From Pseudomonadota bacterium (GTDB lineage Bacteria; Pseudomonadota; Gammaproteobacteria; Chromatiales; Chromatiaceae), in the NCBI GenBank assembly GCA_052035915.1, contig JBPOHE010000007.1, forward strand, positions 1 to 60,613: a stretch of 60,613 bases of DNA, read 5' to 3'. Each line of letters starts with the position of its first letter. Position 1 is the stretch's first letter. The position numbers and the translations under genes were made by a program. Of the stretch, positions 4,299-30,840 are shown one piece after another. The notes below the pieces were generated by a model. That model had not been told where the DNA came from and ran no database searches. It worked only from the letters and a program-made list of their open reading frames with translations.

Positions 4299-4408
4299 GA
4301 CTTCAGAGTGTTGTTCAGGCATCAAGGTAGAGAGGGAACTCAGAGTTTGGGAAAATTTCTGCTGCGCTTGCCAATACTTGGTCGCTCGCGAGGATTTTTC
4401 ACCAACTC

Positions 4409-5593: not shown

Positions 5594-5798
5594 CCAACCC
5601 GCGAGATTCAAACAGCAGGCCCTCCATCAGCCTGGTTAATCAAGGGTTAAGCGCCTTCGATACCTTGGTCCAAGTATCGGCTCATAATCATAAATTCCCC
5701 AAGGTATCTTATCTATTCTATTTTCAGTGCTTCAACGGGTCGGCCCCTTACCTATCGGCTGCTTCCAATTCGTCCGCGGCTTCCATGGTCGGCTGGTT

Positions 5799-12040: not shown

Positions 12041-13159
12041 CTACCGGGCTGTCTTCACTCTATGTTTTTCGTAGGCTTCCATTTTGTATCTTTCTAAAGA
12101 CTCAATAACCAGTTTACTGACTGTGCTTCTGGTTAATCCTTCTTCATTTGCTTCTAATCTGAGCATCGAAAGATTAAGCGTCAACTCGCCCCCCGCAGAC
12201 TCATCCTTATCAGAAAACTCAAATAGTATTCTGCATGTTCCAGAGCAATTATCGCCTTCAAACTCATAATCACATTGAAGCCCGAACAATCGGATATACG
12301 GATGAATGGATTTATCACTGACGAAAAATGTCGAGTGAAGCCCCTGTCCCTTCATCTTCATGTCTTCGATCTTATCCTTCATCCACGCAATATTCTGCGG
12401 CGGGTTAGCAACGCTGTGATCTGGTGAAAAATGAATGTCCCTGGTGTCAACAAAGCGCAGCATTGAGTGACTTACGTTTTGGGTGAGATCATTCATAAAT
12501 TGTACGCGTGATTCATTCGTGAAGTCTGAATACCTGATTATTGTTACGCCGACACTTTGTTTGATGTGCCCTTCGCTTTTGAAGTGCTTTATCAAAGCAC
12601 TTGAGACTTTGTTTCCGAAGTCGATTGTTTCTGGTGCGGTATGGCTTAGCGAAATGTTTAAGGACTTACCATCGTTGCTTTTCCGTATTTCAACACGGCC
12701 CCCATGTGTGACTGTGTTTTCTCCCCAGTTCTTAACTGGATCACGTCTATCAATCTCGAAATCCATGTAGATGTGATCTGGATTATCATTTGATGCAGTA
12801 AAATTTGACATACTTGAAAGACTGAATACACCAAACTGGTCATTCAGAAGAGTCTCGTAGTCAGCCATATCTGGCAAAGACTCAAGCAAGTTGGATTCAG
12901 AATCCCAGCTAATAGTGCGAGTTTTAGATTTTGGCGATTCCTCTTTTGTCCTATAGCTCTCGCGCAAGTCCACGTACTCAAAGGGAGACAGCCCGGTCTT
13001 GATGAGAATGGGGCCTAGAACTTCCTTCTGATCTGACCCTGTAAATACCCCTCTTGCGCGCAAAACGTTTTTTAATTCGGCGTTCTTAACCTTTGTCTGG
13101 CCAATTAGCTGGCGCAAAAAATCCCTAGTAGGAAGCAAGACCTCTTCGTTGTTATTCAT
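12041..13159 (-). CDS. Hypothetical protein B of islet two-gene operon (372 aa, no recognisable domain)
   Basis: About 42-45% GC against a roughly 63% background. It overlaps the upstream gene by 8 nt (translational coupling). No Walker, HEPN, TIR or SIR2 motifs were seen. Confidence 0.6.
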   Translation of the reverse strand: MNNNEEVLLPTRDFLRQLIGQTKVKNAELKNVLRARGVFTGSDQKEVLGPILIKTGLSPFEYVDLRESYRTKEESPKSKTRTISWDSESNLLESLPDMADYETLLNDQFGVFSLSSMSNFTASNDNPDHIYMDFEIDRRDPVKNWGENTVTHGGRVEIRKSNDGKSLNISLSHTAPETIDFGNKVSSALIKHFKSEGHIKQSVGVTIIRYSDFTNESRVQFMNDLTQNVSHSMLRFVDTRDIHFSPDHSVANPPQNIAWMKDKIEDMKMKGQGLHSTFFVSDKSIHPYIRLFGLQCDYEFEGDNCSGTCRILFEFSDKDESAGGELTLNLSMLRLEANEEGLTRSTVSKLVIESLERYKMEAYEKHRVKTAR

Positions 13160-14102
13160 TATTCAAGCTCCTGTAGTCTGGCCGAAAGCTAGCTACTTTT
13201 ATCCGGGTAAAGATATCGCTCTCAAAACCTGTGGCAGCCCTCTTGACTGCATCACCATGACTAGACTCAACATAATTAGGAAATAGAAACAGCAACGTGC
13301 AACTCATGTCTTGAGTGTATTCTTTGGCTGCTTGGATTAGCCTGCGCAGAGAGTCTTGCGCAAAACCTTCTATGGTAGACAGACAGAAAATATCCTGATC
13401 ATGCCGGGACTGTGCCTTAATGATTAGCGGAATCAAAGGTGAGGTCAGAAATTCAAGCGGACATACCTTTCCATATCTCGATATGGTTTTGTCAACATAA
13501 CTTAGTGAAGTCTCAGGATAATAAAAGTGCAGGCGATCGGAGTCGTACTCATGTCTCAAATACTGCACGGTGTCGAATATAAAGTTTATTCTCTGATTAT
13601 CAACCACATGAAACGACTCAAAGCTCCAATCGGAATCAAGTTGTGAGTTTGCAATTTTTGATACGACATCATCATATGTTTCTTCGTTACTCGATAGCCA
13701 GAACAATACCCCGGAATCCCTACTTTTCGTTGTTCGCCCCAACAATTCCTGCTGTTGCTTTTTTAACTCTGAATGTTTGTAACACTCCAAGGTTTCGACT
13801 AAGTCCTTGGCGTGCGATTTGAAAGTCGACTTTGGATTGTTTTCGTACGGGTTTTGTGAATGCTTAACAGATATTACCGCGCTTTCGGCAGTCGAGCCTT
13901 CAAGTGGGCTTCTATAGCAGTACAAATAGTCAATTCCATGTGTTTCTCTTTTTCCAGTCTTTGACCCTTCACTGGCATGTTTGCTTGGCTTTCTACATGG
14001 CAGTTCTTGCCCAGATAAAACGCCTTCCCACCCCAATAAATGGAAGAAATTGCCAACGATATTCTCGCCAATTTCTCCAATTTTTTTAGATTTTTCACCC
14101 AT
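13152..14102 (-). CDS. Hypothetical protein A with N-terminal PD-(D/E)xK (Mrr/Hjc-like) nuclease signature, 316 aa
   Basis: The N-terminal approx. 85 aa read IGEIGENIVGNFFHLLGWEG...THGIDYLY...ESAVISVKH. This fits the E...D...(E/S)xK pattern of restriction-endonuclease-like folds. The remaining approx. 230 aa are unassigned. It is the first gene of the operon, with an AT-rich promoter region upstream (14103-14220). Confidence 0.55.
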   Translation of the reverse strand: MGEKSKKIGEIGENIVGNFFHLLGWEGVLSGQELPCRKPSKHASEGSKTGKRETHGIDYLYCYRSPLEGSTAESAVISVKHSQNPYENNPKSTFKSHAKDLVETLECYKHSELKKQQQELLGRTTKSRDSGVLFWLSSNEETYDDVVSKIANSQLDSDWSFESFHVVDNQRINFIFDTVQYLRHEYDSDRLHFYYPETSLSYVDKTISRYGKVCPLEFLTSPLIPLIIKAQSRHDQDIFCLSTIEGFAQDSLRRLIQAAKEYTQDMSCTLLFLFPNYVESSHGDAVKRAATGFESDIFTRIKVASFRPDYRSLNNE

Positions 14103-14861: not shown

Positions 14862-16409
14862 TCAAGGATTCACCGCCAAGGGCGCCTCGAAGTGTTGGGT
14901 GGTGAAGACCTCGAAGGCGGCGCCTTCCTTCCAGGCGTCCTCCGGCAGACCAGCCTTGCGCGCCAGATGAGAGAGGGTTTGTTCCCGATTCCAACCCTGT
15001 TCCCGGGCCACTTCGGGGAGAAAAACCGCGCTCCGACCTTCCTTGTGCAGGATGATGCCGTGCACACCGGGCTGGAAGTCCTCGACTGAGGGGATGGACT
15101 GGGGCGGGCTGAGCACGCTGACGGTTAGTTCCAGCTCTTTCAATTCCTCCGGCTGCACCGGCGGGAAGCGGTAATCCTGCTGAGCGGCGTTGAGGCCGTT
15201 GAGGATCACTGCCCGATACAGGGGCTCCTTGGGCAGGATGTAGCCGATGCAACCGCGCAGCTCGCCATGTTTCTTCAGGGTGACGAAGGCCCCCGAGGGT
15301 TGACGACCGGCCTCCGGCATCTCGGCCAGGAGTCTTTCATAGTCCGCTGCGATGCCGCTTTGGGGTAGCACGGCATCGATGACCGCGATCCGGGCCAATC
15401 GATGCAGCCAGGGCAGCAGTTCCGGAGTCGGGGCCGTCTCGGCGCGCTTGGGCGCGGCGGCCTTGGACAGAGGGGCCGGATCATAGACGCCGATGCTGAG
15501 GTAACTGACCGAATGGTCCCATTGCTGGGTCAAGGCGCCGCTGGTGTCGTATTGGATCAGCTCGACCTTGGAGCCGGGATTGAGCAGATGGACCAGGATC
15601 AGCAAAGGGGAGAGACCGCAGGCGGTAATGCCGGTACGCCTATGGTATTCCGCCAGGCCTGGGGCATCCTGTTTGGTGATAAATTCAAAGGCCCCCAGAT
15701 CGAGGTTCCGCAGGCGCTCGGGCAATTGCTGATCCGGCGGGAAAGGCAGATAGTCGTATCTGGGACCGTAGTGGGTGAAGTCGCCGGAGATCAGCAACAG
15801 GCTGGTGTCGTCCAACAAAGGGCGCAGCAACTCGGCGGCAGCGGCATAGTCCTGTTCCTCCATGACACCGACGAGTACGGGCAGGAGTTGCCAGCCCGGG
15901 GCCAGACTGCGTTGCAGGAAGGGAAGCTGGATCTCCAGGCTATGTTCGCCCAGGCGGATCGCCTCGTCTCCATGCACCAGGGGTGATGCCCGCAAGGTGG
16001 CGATCGCCGCCGTATCCAGGGGGATGCTGCCCAGAGGAGTGGCATAGTGACTGGCTTCTGGTATCGCCAGACCACGAAAGCCACCGCCATGGGCCGGTCC
16101 AACGGCGATCACCCGTTTCAGTGCCCGCCCCTGGAGCTGGATATACCCCTTGGCCGCGGTGGCGCCTGAATATTGATACCCGGCATGGGGACTCACCAAT
16201 GCCCGCAGCTCGGTGGGCGGCGGGCTGGGGGCCGGTCCGGCCTGCTTGAGCAACTGGTCGATAATCTCCTGGAGTTGGGCCGGCTCCTGCGGATACCAGT
16301 AGCCGGCGATGGCCGAGGGCCGGATGGAGTCGGCGTAGACCGTACCCAGTCCCCAGAACAACCCCAGACAGAGTCCCAGAAAACCCCAGCGCATTGGATC
16401 TCGCCTCAT
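14862..16409 (-). CDS. Fused AmmeMemoRadiSam system proteins B (MEMO1-like) and A (AMMECR1 domain), secreted/periplasmic
   Basis: Signal peptide present. AGYWYP...LVSPHAGYQYSG...VIAVGPAH is the MEMO part. The C-terminal LKKHGELRGCIGYILP is the AMMECR1 hallmark. The start was trimmed to the ATG after the SD GGGGAGGGGGAG. The upstream part of the ORF is GC-rich read-through. Confidence 0.8.
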   Translation of the reverse strand: MRRDPMRWGFLGLCLGLFWGLGTVYADSIRPSAIAGYWYPQEPAQLQEIIDQLLKQAGPAPSPPPTELRALVSPHAGYQYSGATAAKGYIQLQGRALKRVIAVGPAHGGGFRGLAIPEASHYATPLGSIPLDTAAIATLRASPLVHGDEAIRLGEHSLEIQLPFLQRSLAPGWQLLPVLVGVMEEQDYAAAAELLRPLLDDTSLLLISGDFTHYGPRYDYLPFPPDQQLPERLRNLDLGAFEFITKQDAPGLAEYHRRTGITACGLSPLLILVHLLNPGSKVELIQYDTSGALTQQWDHSVSYLSIGVYDPAPLSKAAAPKRAETAPTPELLPWLHRLARIAVIDAVLPQSGIAADYERLLAEMPEAGRQPSGAFVTLKKHGELRGCIGYILPKEPLYRAVILNGLNAAQQDYRFPPVQPEELKELELTVSVLSPPQSIPSVEDFQPGVHGIILHKEGRSAVFLPEVAREQGWNREQTLSHLARKAGLPEDAWKEGAAFEVFTTQHFEAPLAVNP

Positions 16410-16657
16410 CTCCCCCTCCCCTTTTGGTTCAAGATTCATCCTCCGGCAGCGCCCGATAATAGGCCGCCTCCGGATACCCGTAGGGTGCGCAAAGCGCACC
16501 AGAATGGTGGGCGATGCTTCGACTTCGCTCAGCACAGGTGCCCACCCTAGCGTTCCCGGGCACCACAGGCACAGCGGCGCCCAGCACCACCCCGGCACAC
16601 AGCCACAAGAAATACCGTCGATCCGCCTCCCATTCATCTGTGTTCATACTCTCCTCC

Positions 16658-17638
16658 TCAGTGCCAGACCCCGGCGATGGGCTGTTGACAACTCGGGCAG
16701 CGACCATCGGCGGTCAGATGATTGGCGATGACCCGCATGCCGCTGCGTTGGACCAACAGGGTGCCGTCCCTTGGGCAGAAGGTGGATTCCGCTTCGTGCC
16801 CGAAAAGATTGCCGATATAGACATGATGCAGTCCCGCGTCCCGCGCCTCCTCCCGCGCCCGCACCAGGCTGGTCTCCGGCGTCGGCGGCAGGCTGCGCAT
16901 GCGGTACATGGGCACGAAGCGCAGGAAATGCAGCGGCGTATCCGCCCCCAGTTCGTCCCGCATCCAGCGCGCCAGGCGCCGCACCAGGGCCATATCGTCG
17001 TTGAGACTGGGGATCATGAGATTGGAGACTTCGAGCCAGACCTTTTCCTCACGAAAGATCACCATGGCGTCCAGCACCGGCTTGAGGCTGCCGCTGCACA
17101 CCCGGCGGTAGAAGCCGTCGTCGAAGGCCTTGATGTCCAGGGTGGTGGCGTCGAGCCAGCGGCAGAGTTCGCGCAGGGGTTTGGGGTTGATGTAGCCGGC
17201 GGTGACGAAAACATTGTTCAGCCCCTTGGCCTTCGCCAGCTCGGCGCTATCCCGCACATATTCGTAGAAGACGATGGGATCGTTGTAGGTATAGGCCAGC
17301 CCCTGGCAATGACGATCCAGCGCCTCTTGCACCAGACCGGCGGGCGGCAGGGAGTAGATCTGTTCCATCTCCTCGCCGCCGCGCTGGGAGAGTTGCCAGT
17401 TCTGGCAATTGAGGCAATGCAGGTTGCAGCCGGCGGTGCCGATGGAAAACACCGAGGTGGTCGGGCGGAAATGATAGAAGGGTTTCTTTTCGATGGGGTC
17501 GATGTGGACCGCCGAGGGGCGTCCATAGGTGGTCGCCCGCAGTTTCCCCTCGATATTGACCCGCACCCGGCAGTCCCCCGCCGCCCCTTCGGGGATGACG
17601 CAGAGACGGGGACAGAGTTCGCACTGGACCTTGGACAC
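16658..17638 (-). CDS. AmmeMemoRadiSam system radical SAM enzyme
   Basis: GTAGCNLHCLNCQNWQLS gives the CxxxCxxC cluster typical of this family. Length 326 aa. Confidence 0.85.
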   Translation of the reverse strand: MSKVQCELCPRLCVIPEGAAGDCRVRVNIEGKLRATTYGRPSAVHIDPIEKKPFYHFRPTTSVFSIGTAGCNLHCLNCQNWQLSQRGGEEMEQIYSLPPAGLVQEALDRHCQGLAYTYNDPIVFYEYVRDSAELAKAKGLNNVFVTAGYINPKPLRELCRWLDATTLDIKAFDDGFYRRVCSGSLKPVLDAMVIFREEKVWLEVSNLMIPSLNDDMALVRRLARWMRDELGADTPLHFLRFVPMYRMRSLPPTPETSLVRAREEARDAGLHHVYIGNLFGHEAESTFCPRDGTLLVQRSGMRVIANHLTADGRCPSCQQPIAGVWH

Positions 17639-17689: not shown

Positions 17690-17932
17690 TCAGCGCGGCC
17701 GTTCGCGCCCCGCTTCCACCGGCTTGGACCAGAGCGCCTCACGCATCTGTAACTCCCCCGATTGCAGCCGCCGCGCCAGGGCCTCGGTATCGATGCGGCG
17801 CCAGCCGCCCACCGGGGCCATCTCTTCCTGACCGCTGGCGAGAAACAGCCCAATGGCGATCAGGTTGGCGAGAACGAAGCCGAGAAACCTGAATTCGCGC
17901 GGGCGGAGATGGCGCCAGAGAAGAGCTTTCAT
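17690..17932 (-). CDS. Small single-TM protein, translationally coupled to upstream giant gene
   Basis: An 80-aa ORF whose start overlaps the stop of 17929-21621 by 4 nt. It has a hydrophobic segment FLGFVLANLIAIGLFLA. Confidence 0.35.
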   Translation of the reverse strand: MKALLWRHLRPREFRFLGFVLANLIAIGLFLASGQEEMAPVGGWRRIDTEALARRLQSGELQMREALWSKPVEAGRERPR

Positions 17933-20900
17933 GGCCTTCGAGTATAGGCTTCAGGCGGGATCACAGGATGTTCCTGGCCCAGTGCCGGCTCGCTCGGTTT
18001 CCGCGGCCTGAGCCTGGTGTCCCTGGCGGTGAGACAGCGGTTGCAGTGGATGCAGTCGATATCCAGCGCTTCCTGCACCCCGAGATCGCAGTGTTCGATC
18101 CGCCGTTGCGGGGCAAACCGCCGCAGCAGGGCGATCTTGTTGCCGAGGGCGACGAAGGCGCCGAAGGGACAGAAATAGCGGCACCAGAAGCGATAGTAGA
18201 ACAGCGAGCCCAAGAGACTGACGGCGATGACGCCCCCCATCCAGCCCCGCCAGTGGCCGCCGAAACAATGCTGCATCGGGTTGAAGGTGGCCCAGATCTC
18301 CTCACCGCCGATCCAGACCCCCAGCAGCACCAGCGCCAGCAACAGGAACTTGAGATAGCGCAGCCGCGACTCCAACGTCCGCTCCGGGTAGCTGCGCAGA
18401 CGCAGCCAGCGGCCCAGGCGGGAGATGAACTCCTGGAGCGCGCCGAAAGGACAGACATAGCCGCACCAGACCTGACCGAACAAGAGCGCGGTCAGGCCGA
18501 CGAAGCCGAGCAGCAGCCAGCGCAGGGGGTTGGTGGCCAGGTCGGAGAGCCGCCCCTGACTCAGGTTGACCAGGTCGATCTCAGTCACCAGGGTATTCAG
18601 CCAGAGGCCCAGCACCAGCAGAGTCGCCGCCTGGAACAGCAGCCGCGCCGGTTCCGATCCCGAGAGATAGACCGGGAAAAAGATCAGCAACAGCGCCAGG
18701 CTGGTCAAAAATCCCGGGCTAAGCCAGGCCGGGGCGGTTTCGATCTCGGCCTGGGGGGCGAAGCTGCTACCGAAGACCTCCCGACCCGCCAGGCGGGCGG
18801 CCTGGTTGATCGTTTCCAGGGCCGCGCGGCTGCTGACCGTGGCCCCGCTGAGACCATCCAGGCGTTGCAGGCTCAGCGGCGGCTCGGTCAGGCTGTGTCC
18901 CGCCAGTCGCTCCAGCCAGGTGTCGATGCCGGCGACATAGGCGGGGGTCTCGTTCGAGCCCAGATAGCGCACCCCCCGCAGCCGACCCTGTCGATCGAAC
19001 GACACCAGCAGGTCGATGGGACCGGCGTAGCCCCGGATATCTCCGGCCACCGCCCGGGTCGCCAGGCTCACCGTCTCCCCCGCCTCGCCGCCCTGACCGA
19101 GATAATGGGGGAAGGGTCGCTCCCGTAGCTCGAAGCTGGCCGAACCACTGAGTCTCGCCAGGGTGACATCGTCGAAATGGAGTTGCGGACCGGGTTGAGC
19201 GGCGCGATTGAGCAACATGAGCACAAAGCTGGTGAGCACCAGAAACCCCAGTCCCCAGCTCAGGCCCTGATAGGGAAAGGCCCGCCCGCCTCTCGCCACC
19301 AGCGCCGGGAGGCGCTCCGGGGCATATTCGGCGAAGAGCAGGGGGACGCAGACCAGTAGCGCCATCATCGCCAGCACCCAAGCCGTCCCCGCCACCCCGA
19401 GCAAAGGCACCATGAGCGCCCCGGTCAACAGGCCGCCGAGCGCCCCGCCCAGGCTGTCCGCCGCCTCGATGAGACCACTGGACTGCACCGTCTCCTCGGT
19501 ATCCAGATGGGCCAGATGCACCCCCAGGGGGAAACCGGCGCCGGTGACCAGCCCCGCCAGACCGCACAGCCCGAGATAGACCGCCTCCTGAGCCCCGGCC
19601 CCCAGGCCGTCGAGAAACTCGAAGCCCGCGGGCAAAGCGGCGCAACCGGCGGCGATGACCAACATCAGACCGATCAGCGCCAAGCCGGGACGGCGCCGCC
19701 GGGGCAGCGAGCGCCCGAACACCCCGGCGCCGATCACCAGCCCGGTCATGAAGAGCCCATTGAGCAGGGCTATCCGGCTGAAGACAAAGCCCAGATGGGC
19801 CTGGTAGGCGAACAGCAGACAGAGCTGCACCGCCATGGCGATCAATCCCTGCACCGCCAGGGCGAGGATCGCCGCCCATCTCCGGGTACGGCGTCGTGGG
19901 GCTCCGGCGAGGGCGGACTTGAGCATCAAGAGCCAGACCATCACCCCCAGGGGCACCAGGTAGGGCCAGGGGCCCAGGGCCCGCGCCGACTCCAGCCAGG
20001 TCACCAGGGCCGAGGCGGTGAACTTCCCCCAGAGCAGCATGTTGAGGTAATAGGTCAGGGGGCGGGCATCGGTATTGATCTCCGCCTCCTCTTGTTCGAG
20101 TTGGGAGCGCACATAGGCGATCCGCCCCGGGTCCAGCAGGTTGTGGAATGAAGTAGCGGGGAAACGGTGTTCGTCCAGAGGCACCACCAGATAACGCCGG
20201 GACAGCTCCCAGGCGTCTTCGGTCACCCGTTCCGCCAGGGCGGCGGCGCAATAGAGGTGCTGATCCCCGGGGGCGATGGCGATGAAGGGCCACACCGGCT
20301 TCAGGCTGTGATAGACCGAGGCGCTGTAACTCTTCACCTCCCGCCCGAGATAGTTGGAGGCGCTGCTCACCGCCGTGCAGAACACCCCTTCCGGCGTCAT
20401 GAGATGCTGAATACGCCGATAAAACTCCAGGGTGAAATAACGATTGCCGTGGGCGCTGCTGGGGTCGTCGCGCAACACCAGCACCAGGTCATAGGGAGAC
20501 GGCTCCCGCGGTTCCTTGAGAAAACGCCGCCCATCCATGAACACCAGCCGCACCCGGGGGTCCTTCAAGGCCGCCTGGGTGACCTCGGGTAAGTGTGGTC
20601 GCATGCGCTCGAAGGCGAGCTGGTCCTGCTCGATCAGATCGATCCGCTCGACCGGATAACGCAACAGGGCCTCGACCAGCCCGCCGGCGCTGCCGCCGAA
20701 CAAGAGCAGCCGTTTCGGCGCCTCGGCCTGGGAATAGACATAGGCGGCTTCCTGGTCGGCTTCCCGTTGCGCCGGAAAACTCTCGCCGATGCGTCCGTCG
20801 GCGACCAGGGAAAACTGGTCGCCGGTGCGTCCCAGAGCGAGATGACCGTATCTGGTCTCCACCGCGTCCACCCATTGCAGCGCCGGTTGCAGGGTGGCGA

Positions 20901-21621
20901 ACCTCAGCGCCTCCAGCCTCGGCTCCAACCAGGAACTCAGGGGGGTGAAGCCCAGGGCGAGTCCCATCGTCAGCACCAGAGCCAATCCCAGCCGCCGCCA
21001 GCCGCCGCTCCCCAAGGGCCAGGCCGTCAACCCCAATAAGAGCGCCACCACCCCCAGGGTGCGCCAGGTCCCCAGCCATTCGACAAAGACGAAGGTGAAC
21101 AGAAGCCCTCCCAGCAGCGCCCCGATGGCCTCGAAGATATAGAGGCCGGAAACCGCGCCCAGGGTGCCGGGGAGATCCTGATCCGCCTGCCGATCCGGAC
21201 GCAGACCCCGCGCCGCCAAGGGAAAGGCGAGACCGATCAGGATACCGGCGGGCGCCACCACCAGGGCGATGGCGACGAACACCTGTCCGAGAGGGATGAG
21301 TTCGGTCGGCGAGACATCCAGCAACAGCCGCACCCCCCGGGTCACCAGGATCTGCCCGGCGAGCACCAGCGGCAATAACAACAGCGTCCCGCTCAACACC
21401 GGCAGCGGCTGCCGCACCCAGTCCCGCTCCCGCCAATACACCACCAGCGCCGAACCGACGGCGATCCAGAACAACCAACTGCCGTAGAAGGCCCCCAGGG
21501 TGACCTCGTTGCCATAGAACACCACCAGGCACTCGCGGATGAGCATCGCCTGGCTGAGCTGGGAATAGACCCCGAGCACCAAGAGGGTCAGAAAGAGATT
21601 GTGTTGCCTGCGATGGACCAT
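17929..21621 (-). CDS. Giant polytopic fusion protein: spermidine-synthase-like domain, FMN_bind domain and NosR/NapH-like 4Fe-4S polyferredoxin membrane domain
   Basis: N-terminal multi-TM region. Spermidine synthase fold LLLFGGSAGGLVEALLRYPVERIDLIEQD...DPRVRLVFMDGRRFL...YDLVLVLRDDPSS...FTLEFY...TPEGVFCT. A further TM block. FMN_bind-like region GYAGPIDLLVSFDRQGRLRGVRYLGSNETPAYV. C-terminal CGYVCPFGALQEF, CRYFCPFGAFVALG and CIHCNRC. Start trimmed to the ATG after GGGGAGGGGAT. Confidence 0.75.
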   Translation of the reverse strand: MVHRRQHNLFLTLLVLGVYSQLSQAMLIRECLVVFYGNEVTLGAFYGSWLFWIAVGSALVVYWRERDWVRQPLPVLSGTLLLLPLVLAGQILVTRGVRLLLDVSPTELIPLGQVFVAIALVVAPAGILIGLAFPLAARGLRPDRQADQDLPGTLGAVSGLYIFEAIGALLGGLLFTFVFVEWLGTWRTLGVVALLLGLTAWPLGSGGWRRLGLALVLTMGLALGFTPLSSWLEPRLEALRFATLQPALQWVDAVETRYGHLALGRTGDQFSLVADGRIGESFPAQREADQEAAYVYSQAEAPKRLLLFGGSAGGLVEALLRYPVERIDLIEQDQLAFERMRPHLPEVTQAALKDPRVRLVFMDGRRFLKEPREPSPYDLVLVLRDDPSSAHGNRYFTLEFYRRIQHLMTPEGVFCTAVSSASNYLGREVKSYSASVYHSLKPVWPFIAIAPGDQHLYCAAALAERVTEDAWELSRRYLVVPLDEHRFPATSFHNLLDPGRIAYVRSQLEQEEAEINTDARPLTYYLNMLLWGKFTASALVTWLESARALGPWPYLVPLGVMVWLLMLKSALAGAPRRRTRRWAAILALAVQGLIAMAVQLCLLFAYQAHLGFVFSRIALLNGLFMTGLVIGAGVFGRSLPRRRRPGLALIGLMLVIAAGCAALPAGFEFLDGLGAGAQEAVYLGLCGLAGLVTGAGFPLGVHLAHLDTEETVQSSGLIEAADSLGGALGGLLTGALMVPLLGVAGTAWVLAMMALLVCVPLLFAEYAPERLPALVARGGRAFPYQGLSWGLGFLVLTSFVLMLLNRAAQPGPQLHFDDVTLARLSGSASFELRERPFPHYLGQGGEAGETVSLATRAVAGDIRGYAGPIDLLVSFDRQGRLRGVRYLGSNETPAYVAGIDTWLERLAGHSLTEPPLSLQRLDGLSGATVSSRAALETINQAARLAGREVFGSSFAPQAEIETAPAWLSPGFLTSLALLLIFFPVYLSGSEPARLLFQAATLLVLGLWLNTLVTEIDLVNLSQGRLSDLATNPLRWLLLGFVGLTALLFGQVWCGYVCPFGALQEFISRLGRWLRLRSYPERTLESRLRYLKFLLLALVLLGVWIGGEEIWATFNPMQHCFGGHWRGWMGGVIAVSLLGSLFYYRFWCRYFCPFGAFVALGNKIALLRRFAPQRRIEHCDLGVQEALDIDCIHCNRCLTARDTRLRPRKPSEPALGQEHPVIPPEAYTRRP

Positions 21622-21728
21622 GATCCCCTCCCCTTGCGGGAAAGTATGGCCCGTTCCGGCGGCTCTGGAAGAGACCGCGGGCCGGGAGGCTCCGTTCATG
21701 GCAAGCCTGTCGAACCACTCGTGGATCG

Positions 21729-21848
21729 TCCGGGCACAGCCGCCTGAAGGAAGATATTTGTTCTCAAAAAGAGAACAATAAGCATATTTGACAGGCTATT
21801 ATTCTCTTATTAAGAACACTTTTGAGGCCAATTCGGTCCATGCCCGAG
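21729..21848. mobile_element. MITE-C family copy (C1) in divergent promoter region
   Basis: Core TGTTCTC-aaaaa-GAGAACAAT...ATTATTCTC-ttatta-AGAACA. GC-rich arms CCGGGCAC.../...CCATGCCCGAG. Confidence 0.5.
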
Positions 21849-26531: not shown

Positions 26532-26812
26532 GAAGCGTCAAAAGACGAACTGGCCGGCCATGAAGGTCGCCGCCAGGCCCGCCTGGCCGGCGGCGAACCT
26601 GATGGCTCCAACGACTCCGGCTCCGTCCCGACCTCCCAGGGCTCATCTTCCCAGGCCAGCCAGGCCTCCATCCGCTGTTGTCGCGCGTCCCTCTCCAATT
26701 GGCGCCGATCCCTGTGCGCCCCGCCCTTGCGCAGCAAGGGCGATTTGGCCGCCAGATTACGTATCTTCACCCCTTTCATACTTTCTCTCCCAAGGCCACT
26801 GAAAGCCTTCAC

Positions 26813-28009
26813 TCACCCCTTCACGCACACCAGCTGTTTCAAGGTGTGCACCACTTCCACCAGGTCGGTCTGATTGGCCATCACCTGGTCGATGTCTTTA
26901 TAGGCGCCGGGGATCTCGTCGATCACCCCGCCGTCCTTGCGGCACTCGATCCCCTGGGTCTGGGCGGCCAGGTCGTCGGTGCTGAATTTCCGCTTCGCCG
27001 CATGGCGGCTCATGCGCCGGCCCGCGCCGTGAGAGCAGGAGCAAAAGGACTCCGGGTTGCCGAGACCGCGCACCACATAGCTTCTGGCCCCCATGCTGCC
27101 GGGAATGATGCCGAGCTGGTCCGCGTAGGCGGCGATGGCCCCCTTGCGGGTCAGGTAGACCTTGGCCCCGTAGTGCTCCTCGAGGCTCACGTAGTTGTGA
27201 TGGCAGTTCACCGCCTCCTTGGTGGCCTCGAAGGGGGGCAGCACCGGGCGCAGGGCCTCGACGATCAGCCGCATCATCTCGCGGCGGTTGGTCATGGCGT
27301 AGTCCTGGGCCCAGTGCACCGCCTCCACGTAGTCGTCGAAGTGTTCGCTACCCTCGGTGAGATAGGCGAGGTCTTTGTCCGGCAGGGTCCCCAGCAGCTT
27401 ACCCATGTCCCGCTTGGCGAGGTCGATGAAATAGGTGCCCATCACGTTGCCGATGTTGCGGCTGCCGGAGTGCAGCATGATCCAGACCTGATCCGCCTCG
27501 TCGAGACAGATCTCGATGAAGTGGTTGCCGCCCCCCAGGGTGCCGAGCTGGCGTACCCAGGGGAGAAAGGCGCGGCTTTGCTTGCGGTTGATGCCGGGGT
27601 GCTTGGCGATGATCCGCTCCAACCGCTGATCCAGGGCGACGATGGTGGAGCGTTTCACCGGGTCGTGATCGTGCTGCTCGAACCCCACCGGCACGGCCGC
27701 CTCGATAGCGGAGCGCAGGCGATGGAGCTTGTCCGGCAACTGCTCGGCACGCAGGCCCAGGCGCACGGCGTTCATGCCGCAGCCGATGTCCACCCCCACG
27801 GCGGAGGGGATGATCGCCCCGACGGTGGGGATCACCGCGCCGATGGTGGCGCCGATACCCATGTGCACGTCCGGCATCGCCGCCACATGATGGTGAATGA
27901 AAGGGAGCTGGGCGATGTTGCCGAGCTGATCGATGGAGGCGGCGTCGATGTCGTCGGTGTAGACCTTCACCGGCGCCTTGCCTTTGTTGAGGGTCATCTT
28001 GATGGGCAT
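26813..28009 (-). CDS. rtcB: RNA-splicing ligase RtcB
   Basis: HHHVAAMPDVHMGIGATIGAV and GCGMN motifs; length 398 aa. Confidence 0.9.
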   Translation of the reverse strand: MPIKMTLNKGKAPVKVYTDDIDAASIDQLGNIAQLPFIHHHVAAMPDVHMGIGATIGAVIPTVGAIIPSAVGVDIGCGMNAVRLGLRAEQLPDKLHRLRSAIEAAVPVGFEQHDHDPVKRSTIVALDQRLERIIAKHPGINRKQSRAFLPWVRQLGTLGGGNHFIEICLDEADQVWIMLHSGSRNIGNVMGTYFIDLAKRDMGKLLGTLPDKDLAYLTEGSEHFDDYVEAVHWAQDYAMTNRREMMRLIVEALRPVLPPFEATKEAVNCHHNYVSLEEHYGAKVYLTRKGAIAAYADQLGIIPGSMGARSYVVRGLGNPESFCSCSHGAGRRMSRHAAKRKFSTDDLAAQTQGIECRKDGGVIDEIPGAYKDIDQVMANQTDLVEVVHTLKQLVCVKG

Positions 28010-28102
28010 TGGGGGTTCTCCAAAGGTAGCTGTTAGAATTCTATGAGCTTCTCAACCTGCGTTTGGCAGAAAGTTATTGTCTGTGGCAAGGGTAAAACAG
28101 CC

Positions 28103-28351
28103 ATGCGAATCACCGCTGAACTCGATCAACAGCACTTCGAACGATTGCAACAGCTCGAGCAACAGTCCGGCAAGGACACCTCGAGGCTGATTGAAGAGGC
28201 CATCGACGAGATGTTCGCCCACCGCAAGGACGTTCCGGCTCACCAAGCCCTCGAAATCATGCGTCGCAACGGCTTTATCGGCTGTATGGAGGGCGACGAC
28301 GACCTTTCGGTTCTCTACAAGGAAAAGCTCGACTGGTCCCATAAGCTATGA
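28103..28351 (+). CDS. vapB: RHH/VapB-type antitoxin
   Basis: MRITAELDQQHFERLQQLEQQSGKDTSRLIEEAIDEM has a ribbon-helix-helix N-terminus. The stop overlaps the vapC start (ATGA). Confidence 0.6.
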   Translation: MRITAELDQQHFERLQQLEQQSGKDTSRLIEEAIDEMFAHRKDVPAHQALEIMRRNGFIGCMEGDDDLSVLYKEKLDWSHKL

Positions 28352-28767
28352 TCATCGCCGACACCGGTTTCTGGATCGCCTTGGGAAACCGCAAAGATCA
28401 GTTTCACCAAACGGCCATCGATGCCATGAAGCAGATCGATGAGCCCCTGATCACCACTTGGCCGGTCATGACGGAGGTCTGTCACCTTCTCCTCAAACAG
28501 CTCGGCGTGCGTGGCGAAACCTCGTTTTTGAAGAGCTGGCGCGATGGCGCATTCGTACTTTTCGATCTTCGAGACGAGCACTTACCCCGCCTGGTTCAGT
28601 TGGTCGAAAAGTACGCTGACTTACCTATGGACCTTGCTGATGCGTCGCTCGTCATCCTTGCCGAGGAGCTTCGCGAAGGCCGCATCCTGAGCACCGACCG
28701 CCGCGACTTTCGGGCTTACTGCTGGAAAAACCAGCACCCTTTTCATAATCTGCTGTTTGATCAATAA
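28348..28767 (+). CDS. vapC: PIN-domain ribonuclease toxin VapC
   Basis: MIIADTGFWIALGNRKDQFH...TTWPVMTEVCHLL gives the PIN acidic residues. Length 139 aa. Confidence 0.85.
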   Translation: MIIADTGFWIALGNRKDQFHQTAIDAMKQIDEPLITTWPVMTEVCHLLLKQLGVRGETSFLKSWRDGAFVLFDLRDEHLPRLVQLVEKYADLPMDLADASLVILAEELREGRILSTDRRDFRAYCWKNQHPFHNLLFDQ

Positions 28768-28834
28768 CCATAAAGGGATTGTTTTTTCGCTCCTGAACGC
28801 CTATCCAGGCGGCGCCTCCGCGCCGCCCGGTGGG

Positions 28835-29983
28835 TTATCCCGGCCCGATCCTCACCAGCCCGTTCAGCACCCCTTCCAGCCCGCCGAAGACATGCAGGCT
28901 ACCGATCCGCTCGGTGACCTTCTCCAGGGTCTCCAATTCCTTGAGCCGCAGCAGCAGTGGGTTCTCCTCCATGAGCTTGGCGGTGTTGAGCAAAGAGCGG
29001 GTGGCGGCGGTCTCCTCCCGACGCTTGATGACGTTGGCCTGGGCCGCCTTTTCGGCCTCCACCACCTGGTTGAGGATCGTCTTCATCTCGCCGGGCAGGA
29101 TCACGTCCTTGACCCCCACCTCCCGCACCTCCAGCCCGAAGGGGGCCACCTTGGCCCGCACCTGCTCCAAGAGCCCGGAGTCCAGGGACTCCTTGTCTCC
29201 CAGCAGTTCTTCCAGGGTGCGAGTGCCGACCGCCTGCCGCAGGGCGAATTGCAACTCGCGGTAGAGAAAACCGCTCCAGTCCTCCAGCTCGGCGCGGGCC
29301 TTCAGCGGATCGGCGAGGCGGAAGCCGGCGCTCAGGTTGAGCCTCAGGCTCACCTTGTCCTTGGTGAGGATCTCCTGGCCTCCCACCTCCAGGGTTTGGA
29401 GCCGCAGGTCCAGGGTCTCTACCTTGACCGCCCGCAACCAGGTCCAAAACCCATGCAGACCGGGCTTGAGGCTGTCCACCAAGTCGCCGTCCACGAACAC
29501 CAAGCCGAGATGCTGGGCCTTGACCTCAACCACCAGCACCCCGGCGGACAAGGCCCTGACCAGGACCGGCTGGCTGCGGGAGCGTGCGATCAAGTCCAAT
29601 ACCGCTACGGGCACTCGCAGGTCGTCGCCGATCTCGATCAGCTCCACCCGTACCTCCACCGGGCCGCGCCAGTAAACGCGCCGGGCGGCGGGCGGCAAGA
29701 GATCGGTCAGCTTGTCGTCCTGGAACACCAGTCCCACCTGGCGCTCACCCACATCCACCCGTTGCAGGTGGGCGGCACAGACCTCCGGGGCGGTGCGCAC
29801 CAGCATCTCGGCGCCAGCGAGTTCGAGCTCCACCCGACCCAGGTCGCAGAGCTGTACCGCGACCCGATTCAAGGGGTCGAAGTAACGGTAGACACCGGGC
29901 CTGAGCACGGCCCGCAGGGTACGGTCGCGAAACAGCAGGCCACGCTCCTGCTGGGCCACCACGATGCGCCTGAATCCGAACAT
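28835..29983 (-). CDS. SPFH/band-7 (stomatin/flotillin-like) protein
   Basis: SPFH core ...EVGGQEILTKDKVSLRLNLSAGFRL... followed by a coiled-coil. Start trimmed to the ATG after AAGGAG. The upstream 97 codons of the ORF are GC-rich read-through. Confidence 0.8.
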   Translation of the reverse strand: MFGFRRIVVAQQERGLLFRDRTLRAVLRPGVYRYFDPLNRVAVQLCDLGRVELELAGAEMLVRTAPEVCAAHLQRVDVGERQVGLVFQDDKLTDLLPPAARRVYWRGPVEVRVELIEIGDDLRVPVAVLDLIARSRSQPVLVRALSAGVLVVEVKAQHLGLVFVDGDLVDSLKPGLHGFWTWLRAVKVETLDLRLQTLEVGGQEILTKDKVSLRLNLSAGFRLADPLKARAELEDWSGFLYRELQFALRQAVGTRTLEELLGDKESLDSGLLEQVRAKVAPFGLEVREVGVKDVILPGEMKTILNQVVEAEKAAQANVIKRREETAATRSLLNTAKLMEENPLLLRLKELETLEKVTERIGSLHVFGGLEGVLNGLVRIGPG

Positions 29984-30410
29984 GATTCTTCTCCTTTCTA
30001 CACAAGGGCGGCTTGCCGCCTGGGAAGAGAGCCGCCCGCTGTTGGCGGACGCCTTCTCCATTGGCCTCGACAGGGCCGGATAGGCCAGGTCGAGGCGGTA
30101 GTGGCGGCCAAGTCCCGGAGAGGGGAAAGGCGGCCACCGCCGAATAAGCCGTTCCGGGATCGCCGGAGGCGGCTGAAAATCTGGAGACCACCCCGCACCC
30201 GCCCAGCGGGCCACGGGGGCCGGGGGATGGACCCAGGACGGGCCTCGGTAAGGGGCGCTCCGGCGCTGTTTCACTCCTGTGATCCCCTACCTTGGCTGGT
30301 TCTGGGCCGACCCTCCCCGCCGATCCGTCACACAAGCCGGGCGGGTGCCGCGACGCTTGGCGGTCGGGGAGTCGCCTCCCCGCTTCCCCCTCCGTCGCCG
30401 GGGGGTTCCA

Positions 30411-30532
30411 TGCTGTCAAGCGGATTCGAACCGCGGACCCTTGCGGGTCTTTCCTATGGCGGAAATGGAGGATTTGAACCCCCTACCCACTGGTGATCGG
30501 CCAGTTGCTCTACCCAACGAGCTCATTTCCAC
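30411..30532 (-). pseudogene. tRNA-like remnants: one 76-nt tRNA-like sequence (G-1, His-like arms, aberrant anticodon loop CCGATCA) plus a downstream T-arm/acceptor fragment
   Basis: The minus strand reads GTGGAAATGAGCTCGTTGGGTAGAGCAACTGGCCGATCACCAGTGGGTAGGGGGTTCAAATCCTCCATTTCCGCCA. It has acceptor, D and T arms but lacks U33 and purine-37. It is followed by ...GACCCGCAAGGGTCCGCGGTTCGAATCCGCTTGACAGCA (T-loop TTCGAAT, no 5' partner). Confidence 0.45.
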
Positions 30533-30678
30533 GGGCTTTCAAGGATCTCGCTGCCCCGGTACGGACCCTGCGATCGCGCCATCCATTCGAGGCGGCGGAG
30601 AGGCTTGGGCACGCCAGGCCGGAATGGGAACCGGCACCGCTGGAGCAGAGAGCCTTCCCTGAAAGAGTTTTACGGGGC

Positions 30679-30840
30679 TTAAGGCGATTTCTGTCAAAAG
30701 ATAACCAGCCTGCGGGTCTGTTCGTCCGCCTTCGGTGTTCCGCCAGCCGTTACAGAGCTCGCTCTGCGCCGTCTGACGCGCCTGGAAAGCGAACGAACCG
30801 CCGTCGCATTCAGGTATGTCTTTTTCCGGCAATCGCCTAA
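30679..30840. mobile_element. MITE-D copy 1 (about 160 bp, TIR TTAGGCGAT/ATCGCCTAA)
   Basis: Highly similar to 37506-37664. Nested internal palindromes CTGTTCGTCCGCC...AACGAACAG. Confidence 0.55.

What the first reader, a model, noticed from the sequence alone, without database searches (positions are those of the whole stretch)
17929..21621. Unusual domain fusion: polytopic spermidine-synthase-like domain + FMN_bind + NapH/NosR-type 4Fe-4S membrane ferredoxin
The central region has a clear aminopropyltransferase/methyltransferase fold (GGSAGG...DPRVRLVFMDGRRFL...DDPSS...FTLEFY). The C-terminal third has an FMN_bind domain and three Cys clusters (CGYVCPFG, CRYFCPFG, CIHCNRC) embedded in TM helices, as in NosR/NirI/NapH. 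I am not aware of a characterised protein combining these modules. It could couple quinol/flavin-derived electrons to a polyamine- or SAM-dependent reaction at the membrane.
Basis: partly seen in the sequence, partly recalled or inferred. Interest (0 to 1): 0.6.

Follow-up and report, generated by a model that had tools for sequence, protein, structure and literature searches.

The report
Membrane hub of exported Memo–AMMECR1 system
The ORF is a real, widely conserved 1,230-residue membrane protein that joins a transporter carrying a catalytically disabled spermidine-synthase-like domain to a NosR-type electron-carrying module, and it sits beside the unexplained Memo/AMMECR1/radical-SAM gene trio, whose Memo–AMMECR1 enzyme appears here to be exported, which gives a new and testable clue to what that trio does.

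Summary
Window 17929–21621 (−) is one intact 1,230-aa ORF with Spermine_synth, FMN_bind and two Fer4_5 hits, and all quoted motifs are present. It is not a frameshift: more than 900 protein clusters in at least six phyla share the full architecture, and Nitrospirota encode the two halves as adjacent genes.

1. The membrane helices around the spermidine-synthase-like domain form a 12-helix MFS transporter fold.
2. That domain lacks the two aspartates that define aminopropyltransferases (GGGDGG→GGSAGG; catalytic Asp→Leu383). Polyamine synthesis is therefore unlikely.
3. The gene heads a conserved operon with the AmmeMemoRadiSam trio: the AmrS radical-SAM enzyme plus a fused Memo–AMMECR1. In these loci Memo–AMMECR1 almost always carries a signal peptide, lipobox or membrane anchor.

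Each half also pairs with trio genes on its own in other lineages. My best model is that the protein is the membrane hub of an extracytoplasmic variant of this system. The NosR-like half would carry electrons across the membrane to or from exported Memo–AMMECR1. The MFS half would link cytoplasmic AmrS chemistry to the periplasm. The function is not proven, and which side of the membrane the spermidine-synthase-like domain faces is unresolved. I found no paper describing this arrangement.

The parts
17929..21621 (-). Whole fusion ORF (1,230 aa): MFS transporter fold with an inserted SpdSyn-like domain, then FMN_bind, then a NapH/NosR-type Fe-S membrane module
   Evidence: AlphaFold model: mean pLDDT 86.6, pTM 0.84
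21013..21621 (-). MFS N-domain, residues 1-203 (TM1-6). Conserved charged residues R29, E30, E39, R95, R98 and E164
20947..21000 (-). Extra uniformly hydrophobic helix, residues 208-225, between MFS TM6 and the SpdSyn-like domain
   Evidence: Whether it crosses the membrane is unresolved
20062..20886 (-). Spermidine-synthase-fold domain, residues 246-520, catalytically degenerate. G-loop is FGGSAGG (Ala312 replaces the Asp). Leu383 replaces the catalytic Asp. Retained: G309, D333, D363, R365, N393, R394, T397 and R476
19906..19968 (-). Extra hydrophobic helix, residues 552-572, between the SpdSyn-like domain and MFS TM7
19324..19896 (-). MFS C-domain, residues 576-766 (TM7-12). Conserved Q607, G611, F624, M625 and D722
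   Evidence: The Nitrospirota split gene ends right after this block
19198..19269 (-). Anchor helix of the NosR-like module, residues 785-808, leading outward to the FMN domain
   Evidence: In the split versions the C-module gene starts with its own helix of this kind
18772..19170 (-). FMN_bind domain, residues 818-950, predicted periplasmic. The flavinylation motif S925-G-A-T928 lies at 18838-18849. A927 and T928 are invariant in 50 sequences; G926 is present in at least 90%
   Evidence: The [S/T]GA[S/T] motif is defined in PMC8238504. RnfG structures hit
18166..18738 (-). NapH/NosR-type membrane part, residues 962-1152: five helices with two CX3CP motifs (C1053/C1057 and C1147/C1151)
18034..18090 (-). 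C-terminal four-Cys motif C1178-x11-C1190-x2-C1193-x2-C1196, invariant. Inferred to hold a cytoplasmic [4Fe-4S] cluster
17690..17932 (-). Small protein 1 (80 aa) with an N-terminal membrane helix. Its start overlaps the fusion gene's stop (ATGA). Found only in the gammaproteobacterial branch
16658..17638 (-). AmrS, the AmmeMemoRadiSam system radical-SAM enzyme (326 aa), with no signal sequence
   Evidence: TIGR04337 scores 374 bits against a cut-off of 220
16429..16647 (-). Small protein 2 (72 aa) with a twin-arginine-like RRxFL signal. Orthologues carry RRRFLG...L[RK]EAD[FY]YRP and reach the TAT_signal_seq cut-off
14862..16409 (-). Memo-AMMECR1 fusion (515 aa) with a signal-peptide-like N-terminus, MRRDPMRWGFLGLCLGLFWGLGTVYA|DS. 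The residues that align with human MEMO1's PHAGY, GPSH, SDFCH and TICG motifs (which I take, from memory, to hold the metal ligands) are kept. The AMMECR1 RGCIG and DYRF motifs are present
   Evidence: TIGR04336 200 bits and TIGR04335 163 bits

Best explanation
The ORF encodes the membrane hub of an extracytoplasmic variant of the AmmeMemoRadiSam system. Its C-terminal third is a NosR/PceC-type transmembrane electron conduit. That conduit consists of an outward-facing FMN_bind domain that an ApbE-type enzyme would flavinylate at Thr928, five helices, a cluster site built from two CX3CP motifs, and a second four-Cys site at the cytoplasmic face. I infer that it passes single electrons between the cytoplasmic side or quinone pool and the exported Memo-AMMECR1 enzyme, setting or restoring the redox state of Memo's metal centre, much as NosR sustains periplasmic N2O reductase. 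The N-terminal two thirds are a 12-helix MFS transporter whose central TM6-TM7 loop carries a spermidine-synthase-fold domain. That domain has lost the aminopropyltransferase catalytic residues but keeps nucleotide-type binding positions. I infer that this half couples the cytoplasmic radical-SAM enzyme AmrS to the periplasmic enzymes by moving or presenting a cationic, possibly SAM- or amine-derived, ligand. Shown here: the architecture, folds, motif states, conserved gene linkage and export signals. Inferred: cofactor loading, direction of electron flow, what is transported, and the partner contacts.
Against: There are no experimental data for any component, and the biochemical function of Memo, AMMECR1 and AmrS is unknown. 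No ApbE gene was identified among the 41 window ORFs I scanned against Pfam or NCBIfam, and the rest of the genome is unavailable. Export of Memo-AMMECR1 rests on a hydropathy heuristic, not a dedicated predictor. Six of the 34 fusion loci lack the trio nearby, and most stand-alone N-module genes sit in unrelated contexts, so the N-module has a more general role. The module has one ferredoxin-type Cys motif where, as I recall, NosR and NapH have two. The side of the membrane faced by the SpdSyn-like domain is unresolved, and this changes what the N-module could do. All loci come from MAGs or metagenomes.
Confidence: 0.5

Rival explanations
1. One reading: the central domain is an active aminopropyl- or methyltransferase. 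The protein would couple quinol- or flavin-derived electrons to a polyamine- or SAM-dependent reaction at the membrane.
For: The spermidine-synthase fold is genuine. The G-loop glycine G309, the acidic residue at the end of strand 2 (D333) and the adenine-contacting D363 are nearly invariant. From my own knowledge, loss of the G-loop Asp is what converts plant spermidine synthase into the SAM-using putrescine N-methyltransferase, so SAM binding is conceivable. The family has its own invariant motif, P-D-P-x-[ST]-A-x-x-N-R-[FY]-[FY]-T-x-E-F, which could be a different active site.
Against: The catalytic Asp position is Leu383 here and mostly Asn or Leu in relatives. The G-loop Asp is absent from nearly all relatives. 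Scores fall far below every SpeE equivalog cut-off: 113 against 472, 80 against 260, and 57 against 250. If the two flanking hydrophobic helices cross the membrane, the domain would sit in the periplasm, where SAM is not available.
Confidence: 0.15
2. A NosR-like respiratory or quinol-dehydrogenase accessory protein that serves some other periplasmic enzyme, with adjacency to the AmmeMemoRadiSam genes being incidental.
For: NapH-like flavinylated proteins serve many different oxidoreductases (PMC8238504). Six of the 34 loci lack the trio nearby.
Against: The linkage holds across at least five phyla with different gene orders and with overlapping start and stop codons. No other neighbour is conserved. 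No nos, nap, rdh, nirS or exaA genes turned up among the genes flanking it in the window or in L001/L002. The NosR equivalog score is 68 against a cut-off of 1000.
Confidence: 0.07
3. The N-module is a polyamine or other amine exporter or sensor with a non-catalytic ligand-binding SpdSyn-like domain. It was fused to the NosR-like module only for co-expression or co-assembly, with no mechanistic coupling.
For: The stand-alone N-module family is large (2,613 representatives at E<=1e-30) and occurs in varied contexts. The closest MFS structures are amine or drug antiporters, and acidic residues are conserved inside the helices. A PDB entry title reports H. pylori SpeE in complex with FliM (5x0z); I recall this as a spermidine-synthase-like protein acting as a binding partner.
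Against: The fusion has been kept across several phyla. Stand-alone N-modules are themselves found overlapping AmrS genes, which argues for a functional tie to the system rather than a passive fusion.
Confidence: 0.15
4. A sequencing or assembly artefact that joins two or three separate genes.
For: None, beyond the unusual length. Nitrospirota do encode the halves as two genes.
Against: More than 900 independent clusters match in the two searches, and every listed one (240) is a single long protein of about 1,150-1,390 aa. The reading frame is uninterrupted. The full-length model is confident.
Confidence: 0.01

Closest known systems
NosR (N2O-reductase accessory flavo-Fe-S membrane protein), PceC, and the 'NapH-like' flavinylated systems of Meheust et al. 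2021 (PMC8238504)
   Same: An anchor helix, an outward FMN_bind domain with the [S/T]GA[S/T] flavinylation motif, five helices carrying two CX3CP motifs (PF12801), and cytoplasmic Cys-rich Fe-S sites. The presumed job is moving electrons across the membrane to a periplasmic metalloenzyme.
   Different: It scores far below the NosR equivalog cut-off (68 against 1000). It has one C-terminal ferredoxin-type Cys motif where, as I recall, NosR has two. No nos, nap or rdh genes turned up nearby. It is fused behind an approximately 780-aa MFS/SpdSyn-like module. The inferred partner is Memo-AMMECR1, which the paper's main text does not mention; its Pfam accession was also absent from the three supplementary files held as text.
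NCBIfam NF037959 'fused MFS/spermidine synthase', and PRK03612 membrane-type 'polyamine aminopropyltransferase'
   Same: The N-terminal 760 residues match stand-alone proteins of about 770 aa with the same layout and the same non-canonical motifs. Those proteins pass the NF037959 cut-off. The TM block plus SpdSyn-domain arrangement aligns to PRK03612 over residues 13-425.
   Different: The window protein itself scores 34.5 against a cut-off of 40 for NF037959, and 113 against 472 for PRK03612. It lacks the canonical catalytic Asp residues. It carries the additional NosR-like module. Neither family has a tested function as far as I could find.
AmmeMemoRadiSam system (TIGR04335, TIGR04336, TIGR04337; AMMECR1 + Memo + radical SAM)
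   Same: The three downstream genes are clear members, and the linkage of AMMECR1, a radical-SAM enzyme and a ring-opening dioxygenase homologue is long known (PMC2034487).
   Different: From my own knowledge, the characterised members (human MEMO1 and AMMECR1, archaeal PH0010) are intracellular. Here Memo-AMMECR1 carries export signals while AmrS does not, and the system has gained a transporter and electron-conduit membrane protein. Burroughs et al. 2019 (JBC 294:10211) describe further Memo contexts, but I could not read that paper.
Soluble spermidine synthases and polyamine aminopropyltransferases (e.g. T. thermophilus SpeE, PDB 1uir/3anx)
   Different: Only about 20% identity. The G-loop Asp and the catalytic Asp are missing. 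The domain is inserted into a transporter loop.

Membership tests
Polyamine aminopropyltransferase (SpeE; PF01564 / TIGR00417 / PRK00811 / PRK03612) | Spermidine-synthase fold: an N-terminal beta domain plus a Rossmann-like domain | tested here: met
Polyamine aminopropyltransferase (SpeE; PF01564 / TIGR00417 / PRK00811 / PRK03612) | GGGDGG loop, whose Asp contacts the aminopropyl amine and excludes the SAM carboxylate | tested here: not met
   The window has FGGSAGG, with Ala312 at the Asp position. Asp is absent at that position in 53 cross-phylum sequences, and in 131 representatives it is not among the common residues there.
Polyamine aminopropyltransferase (SpeE; PF01564 / TIGR00417 / PRK00811 / PRK03612) | Catalytic Asp, the first Asp of D-[GS]-[ST]-D-P | tested here: not met
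   It aligns to Leu383. Family counts are Asn 24, Leu 18 and Asp 3 of 53. The second Asp is present here (D386), and 38 of 53 sequences have Asp or Glu there.
Polyamine aminopropyltransferase (SpeE; PF01564 / TIGR00417 / PRK00811 / PRK03612) | Score above the curated equivalog cut-offs | tested here: not met
   113 against 472 (PRK03612), 80.4 against 260 (PRK00811), and 56.9 against 249.55 (TIGR00417).
Polyamine aminopropyltransferase (SpeE; PF01564 / TIGR00417 / PRK00811 / PRK03612) | Aminopropyl transfer from dcSAM to a polyamine | not testable with these tools
   This needs an enzyme assay.
Fused MFS/spermidine synthase (NCBIfam NF037959) | HMM score of at least 40 bits | tested here: not met
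   The window protein scores 34.5. Of the seven stand-alone relatives scanned (754-793 aa), six score 44.9-81.9 and one scores 36.4.
Fused MFS/spermidine synthase (NCBIfam NF037959) | MFS-type membrane domain joined to a SpdSyn-like domain | tested here: met
NosR / NapH-like flavinylated membrane Fe-S proteins | PF12801 (Fer4_5) CX3CP motifs within a polytopic membrane domain | tested here: met
   Two Fer4_5 hits. C1053, C1057 and C1151 are invariant and C1147 is present in at least 90%.
NosR / NapH-like flavinylated membrane Fe-S proteins | Extracytosolic FMN_bind domain with an [S/T]GA[S/T] flavinylation motif | tested here: met
   FMN_bind E 6.2e-10. SGAT at 925-928, with A927 and T928 invariant and G926 present in at least 90% of 50 sequences. 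Motif definition. The outside location is inferred from loop charges.
NosR / NapH-like flavinylated membrane Fe-S proteins | Two C-terminal ferredoxin-type [4Fe-4S] motifs (the count for NosR and NapH is from my memory) | tested here: inconclusive
   Only one four-Cys set is present: C1178, C1190, C1193 and C1196.
NosR / NapH-like flavinylated membrane Fe-S proteins | NosR equivalog score and nos gene context | tested here: not met
   68.2 bits against 1000, covering only residues 1028-1193. No nos genes turned up among the scanned ORFs on either side of the operon.
NosR / NapH-like flavinylated membrane Fe-S proteins | Covalent FMN, an ApbE in the genome, and Fe-S clusters actually bound | not testable with these tools
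   No ApbE was seen among the 41 window ORFs scanned. The rest of the genome is not available.
AmmeMemoRadiSam system (the neighbouring genes) | AmrS, Memo (protein B) and AMMECR1 (protein A) above cut-off and co-located | tested here: met
   374 against 220, 200 against 26, and 163 against 99 bits. Adjacent on the same strand. The linkage recurs in 28 of 34 loci.
Major facilitator superfamily | Twelve helices as two homologous six-helix bundles | tested here: met

The most novel reading that the evidence does not exclude
Bacteria in several phyla run Memo-AMMECR1 chemistry outside the cytoplasm. The pathway would span the membrane: radical-SAM AmrS acts inside, the MFS/SpdSyn-like module carries or presents the intermediate, and the FMN/Fe-S module feeds single electrons to the exported Memo metal centre. 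If so, Memo-AMMECR1, whose human homologues MEMO1 and AMMECR1 lack an agreed biochemical function, would be an electron-requiring redox enzyme pair acting on a small exported molecule or an envelope component. The fusion protein would be a new kind of combined transporter and electron conduit.
Probability: 0.3. Interest if true: 0.8.

Novelty: new variant of a known kind. Interest (0 to 1): 0.62.

Why it matters
Memo and AMMECR1 are conserved from archaea to humans and are linked to human disease, yet neither has an agreed reaction. The AmmeMemoRadiSam trio is known only from comparative genomics. This locus type adds three constraints that can be tested at the bench. First, Memo-AMMECR1 appears able to work in a compartment without SAM, NAD(P)H or ferredoxin. 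Second, when exported it is accompanied by a dedicated flavin/Fe-S electron conduit, which points to redox chemistry at its metal site. Third, the radical-SAM partner stays in the cytoplasm and is linked to an MFS transporter, which points to a small-molecule intermediate or to modification before export. The finding also assigns a first functional context to part of a large unannotated family ('fused MFS/spermidine synthase', thousands of clusters). It adds a new partner class to the NapH-like flavinylated electron-transfer systems, most of which have no known partner.

Tried and rejected
- **Frameshift or mis-assembly:** rejected.
- **Canonical spermidine synthase activity:** rejected on the motif states.
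- **True NosR:** rejected on score and context.
- **Literature:** ten full-text searches found no paper on this architecture or on the bacterial function of the trio. Burroughs et al. 2019 is not held.
- **Other conserved neighbours:** all-against-all clustering of ORFs from 54 loci gave only the three known genes plus antisense shadow ORFs.
- **Contexts of stand-alone N-modules:** variable and uninformative.
- **Which side the SpdSyn-like domain faces:**
  - Positive-inside counts fix the FMN domain outside and the Fe-S sites inside, but they do not decide helices 208-225 and 552-572, whose flanks are basic on both sides.
  - The C415/C458 pair co-occurs perfectly but only within one clade.
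  - M. tuberculosis Rv2601 is absent from the EXIT list of exported proteins despite 16 reporter fusions in its SpdSyn domain. This is only weak evidence for a cytoplasmic location.
- **Upstream 22-nt inverted repeat:** not conserved in an 87%-identical relative.
- **Archaeal NapH-like gene near AmrS (L068):** separated by unrelated genes and probably coincidental.
- **afdb50 fold search:** unavailable.

Full report
**1.

The minus strand carries one uninterrupted ORF, 17929..21699. The ATG at 21621 follows GGGGAGGGG and coincides with where homologues begin.

Pfam reports Spermine_synth at 298-452 (E 2.1e-17), FMN_bind at 864-942 (6.2e-10) and two Fer4_5 hits (4.9e-13). NCBIfam adds partial matches to membrane-type polyamine aminopropyltransferase PRK03612 (residues 13-425), the NosR C-terminal region, NapH and RnfG. 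All of these fall well below their equivalog cut-offs.

**2. It is not an artefact**

A search with the window protein found 221 clusters at E<=1e-5. The 120 listed have about 1,145-1,340 aa at 50-97% identity, and 119 of them carry all three Pfam domains. A search seeded with a planctomycete copy found 731 more.

A scan of one genome per species found full-length copies in MAGs of Gammaproteobacteria (Chromatiaceae, Ectothiorhodospiraceae, Sedimenticola and tubeworm endosymbionts), Thermodesulfobacteriota, Myxococcota, Planctomycetota and Bacteriovoracaceae. In Nitrospirota the two halves are adjacent separate genes. The split falls exactly after the last helix of the N-terminal module, and the second gene begins with its own anchor helix followed by FMN_bind. 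This defines two modules: N (residues 1 to about 770) and C (about 785 to 1230).

**3. Anatomy of the C-module**

FMN_bind carries S925-G-A-T928, which matches the [S/T]GA[S/T] motif that ApbE flavinylates on the last residue (PMC8238504). A927 and T928 are invariant in 50 sequences spanning two phyla at about 25% identity, and G926 is present in at least 90%.

Eight Cys are conserved: two CX3CP motifs (C1053/C1057 and C1147/C1151) and C1178, C1190, C1193 and C1196. Seven are invariant and C1147 is present in at least 90%. I infer two [4Fe-4S] sites from this.

Lys+Arg counts per loop across the 50 sequences follow the positive-inside rule closely. They place FMN_bind outside and both Cys sites inside. 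From my own knowledge, that is the topology established for NosR. The module is NosR/PceC-like in design, but it is not NosR: it scores 68 bits against a cut-off of 1000, and no nos genes turned up nearby.

**4. Anatomy of the N-module**

An AlphaFold model built on a 50-sequence alignment is confident (mean pLDDT 86.6, pTM 0.84).

- A profile-profile comparison shows that block 5-199 is homologous to block 580-757 (probability 90.7%, E 1.3e-6), as expected for the two MFS halves.

So the SpdSyn-like domain is inserted in the MFS central loop between TM6 and TM7. It is flanked by two additional uniformly hydrophobic helices, 208-225 and 552-572. Charged residues inside the helices (R29, E30, E164, D722) and the loop motifs G37-N-E39, R95/R98 and Q607/G611 are conserved.

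**5. The SpdSyn-like domain is not a canonical enzyme**

In the HMM alignment to Synechococcus SpeE (6qmm), GGGDGG aligns to GGSAGG, so the Asp becomes Ala312. VDGSDP aligns to VLRDDP, so the catalytic Asp becomes Leu383.

In 53 cross-phylum sequences, position 383 is Asn in 24, Leu in 18 and Asp in 3. The G-loop Asp is absent from all 53. The same holds for 131 representatives, where Asp at position 383 is a minority (15 of 131). These share a family motif, [NL]-x-P-D-P-x-[ST]-A-x-x-N-R-[FY]-[FY]-T-x-E-F.

The positions retained are G309, D333, D363, R365, N393, R394, T397 and R476. The first three correspond to the nucleotide-binding positions of Rossmann-like methyltransferase folds, so binding of an adenosyl-type ligand remains possible.

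**6. The N-module is itself a large family**

An exhaustive HMMER search with residues 1-830 gave 2,613 representatives at E<=1e-30. Most of the best hits beyond rank 40 are stand-alone proteins of about 750-800 aa that cover query residues 9-760. Six of the seven scanned pass the NCBIfam 'fused MFS/spermidine synthase' cut-off, which the window protein narrowly misses at 34.5 against 40. I found no literature on that family, and the stand-alone contexts I sampled vary.

**7. Genomic context is the main new finding**

Downstream on the same strand lie four genes:

- An 80-aa membrane protein whose ATG overlaps the fusion gene's stop codon.
- AmrS (TIGR04337, 374 bits).
- A 72-aa protein with a twin-arginine-like signal.
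- A Memo-AMMECR1 fusion (TIGR04336 plus TIGR04335).

The same five genes follow the orthologue in a tubeworm endosymbiont genome and in another 707-kb contig, while the outer flanks differ.

I classified ORFs from 83 loci with phmmer. Of the 34 loci with at least 3.5 kb on both sides of the fusion, 28 carry AmrS and 28 carry Memo/AMMECR1. Gene order differs by phylum; in Planctomycetota it is AmrS, Memo-AMMECR1, then the fusion, with overlapping ends. All-against-all clustering found no other neighbour conserved across phyla.

**8. Memo-AMMECR1 appears to be exported in these loci**

The window protein begins MRRDPMRWGFLGLCLGLFWGLGTVYA|DS. The true start at 16409 has a strong ribosome-binding site. 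The longer 591-aa ORF is an upstream extension that overlaps small protein 2.

In 40 of 41 loci a hydrophobic 15-mer lies within 90 residues upstream of the Memo core, and five have lipobox-like motifs. The residues that align with human MEMO1's PHAGY, GPSH, SDFCH and TICG motifs, which I take from memory to hold the metal ligands, are kept. The AMMECR1 RGCxG and DxR-aromatic motifs are also kept (motifs as defined in PMC2034487). AmrS has no signal sequence.

**9. Each module links to the trio on its own**

Locus L051 has a 423-aa FMN_bind+Fer4_5 gene immediately followed by an exported stand-alone Memo. No N-module or AmrS lies within 7 kb.

As an independent sample, I seeded a metagenome scan on AmrS, using an archaeal sequence first. 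Most AmrS genes had none of these partners within 6 kb. In 9 loci a stand-alone N-module lies adjacent to or overlaps AmrS: L135, L137, L140, L148, L149, L154, L159, L168 and L169. Two further loci carry a truncated copy (L126) and a full fusion (L162). Four of the nine also have an exported Memo-AMMECR1. The only two Memo genes without a hydrophobic N-terminus (L091 and L104) had neither module nearby. The numbers are small, but they point the same way.

**10. Interpretation**

The most economical reading is as follows. When Memo-AMMECR1 works outside the cytoplasm it needs two things that the cytoplasm would otherwise supply. It needs reducing equivalents, which the NosR-like FMN/Fe-S conduit would provide. 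It also needs a connection to the cytoplasmic radical-SAM enzyme, which the MFS/SpdSyn-like module would provide by moving or presenting a probably cationic ligand.

The window protein fuses both services into one chain. This fits the published view of NapH-like flavinylated proteins as modular conduits to extracytosolic oxidoreductases, most of whose partners are unknown. From my own knowledge, there are two precedents: NosR sustains periplasmic N2O reductase, and the ferredoxin XylT reactivates an extradiol dioxygenase by re-reducing its iron. Cofactor loading, electron direction, cargo and contacts are all inferred.

**11. What stays open**

The side of the membrane faced by the SpdSyn-like domain is unresolved.

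- *For an outside location:* helices 208-225 and 552-572 are uniformly hydrophobic, join the MFS helices by 3-4-residue turns, and occupy the position of the extra helix pair seen in 14-helix MFS proteins.
- *For an inside location:* the nucleotide-binding positions are conserved, both flanks of each helix are basic, the layout is homologous to PRK03612-type proteins, and M. tuberculosis Rv2601 is absent from the EXIT exported set despite 16 reporter fusions in its SpdSyn domain. That last point is weak, because none of its loops scored either.

I put the odds near even. In addition, no ApbE was identified among the 41 window ORFs I scanned. The export calls are heuristic. I could not read Burroughs et al. 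2019, which describes further Memo gene contexts and may overlap with this finding.

**12. Verdict**

The domain fusion is real and conserved, and I found no characterisation of it. The polyamine-synthesis idea is unlikely. The protein is best filed as a new variant that combines two known kinds: a NapH/NosR-like flavinylated electron conduit and a 'fused MFS/spermidine synthase' transporter. It serves a periplasm-facing version of the AmmeMemoRadiSam system. I score interest at 0.62, because it turns the long-standing question of what Memo and AMMECR1 do into concrete experiments.

Noticed in passing
window 12041-14102 (-): A GapS4b (372 aa, NF047934, E 1e-114) plus GapS4a (316 aa, NF047933, E 2e-104) antiphage gene pair. 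It sits in a low-GC island (GC 0.43-0.51 against about 0.62 elsewhere) immediately downstream of the operon.
   Followed up: partly
window 16429-16647 (-), and L001, L002, L004, L005, L007, L008, L010: A small ORF between AmrS and Memo-AMMECR1 has a twin-arginine signal (RRRFLG) and a conserved C-terminal motif, L[RK]EAD[FY]YRP. Two orthologues reach the TAT_signal_seq cut-off. It is seen only in the gammaproteobacterial branch. It could be a Tat-exported small subunit or a peptide substrate. From memory, Memo homologues bind Tyr-containing peptides.
   Followed up: partly
window 17690-17932 (-): An 80-aa protein with one N-terminal membrane helix and a conserved W-R-R-I-D...L-x-S-G tail. It is translationally coupled to the fusion gene (ATGA overlap). 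It was found in 10 gammaproteobacterial loci and matches no family.
   Followed up: partly
window 14862-16637 (-): The longest ORF for Memo-AMMECR1 (591 aa) overcalls the gene. The real start is 16409 (515 aa, with a strong ribosome-binding site), and the 5' extension overlaps small protein 2 in another frame.
   Followed up: yes
window 21759-21780 / 21797-21818: A 22-nt AT-rich inverted repeat (86% complementary, 16 nt apart) lies about 140-200 nt upstream of the fusion gene in an otherwise GC-rich region. It is not conserved in the 87%-identical relative L089.
   Followed up: yes
window 6293-8425 (-): A 710-aa protein with DinB_2, FGE-sulfatase and methyltransferase domains. From my own knowledge this is the architecture of OvoA-type 5-histidylcysteine sulfoxide synthase, used in ovothiol synthesis.
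   Followed up: no
window 26678-30840 (+): A run of five co-oriented ORFs (452, 102, 139, 579 and 115 aa) with no Pfam match except a weak ribbon-helix-helix hit in the second.
   Followed up: no
window 193-1242 (+); 3102-5611 (-): A phage-type integrase lies at the window start. Nearby is a caspase-domain protein (400 aa) next to an OmpA/TPR protein (439 aa).
   Followed up: no
L057 7547-8020 and L067 7496-7969: In two Nitrospirota loci with the split version, a conserved 157-aa soluble protein with no family match lies immediately upstream of the N-module gene and overlaps it.
   Followed up: partly
L086 / L087 1351-9295: A stand-alone N-module gene (764 aa) directly follows a BatA / VWA / BatD / TPR-SH3 gene cluster in two metagenome contigs.
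   Followed up: no
fusion protein residues 415 and 458 (window 20377-20379 and 20248-20250): Two Cys that I place on neighbouring strands of the SpdSyn-like domain, judging from the usual methyltransferase strand order, co-occur almost perfectly: 141 sequences have both, 244 have neither and 2 have one. The pair is confined to one clade (all 121 gammaproteobacterial sequences plus 20 of the representatives). Planctomycete copies instead carry 3-4 Cys at positions 279, 297, 316 and 332.
   Followed up: partly
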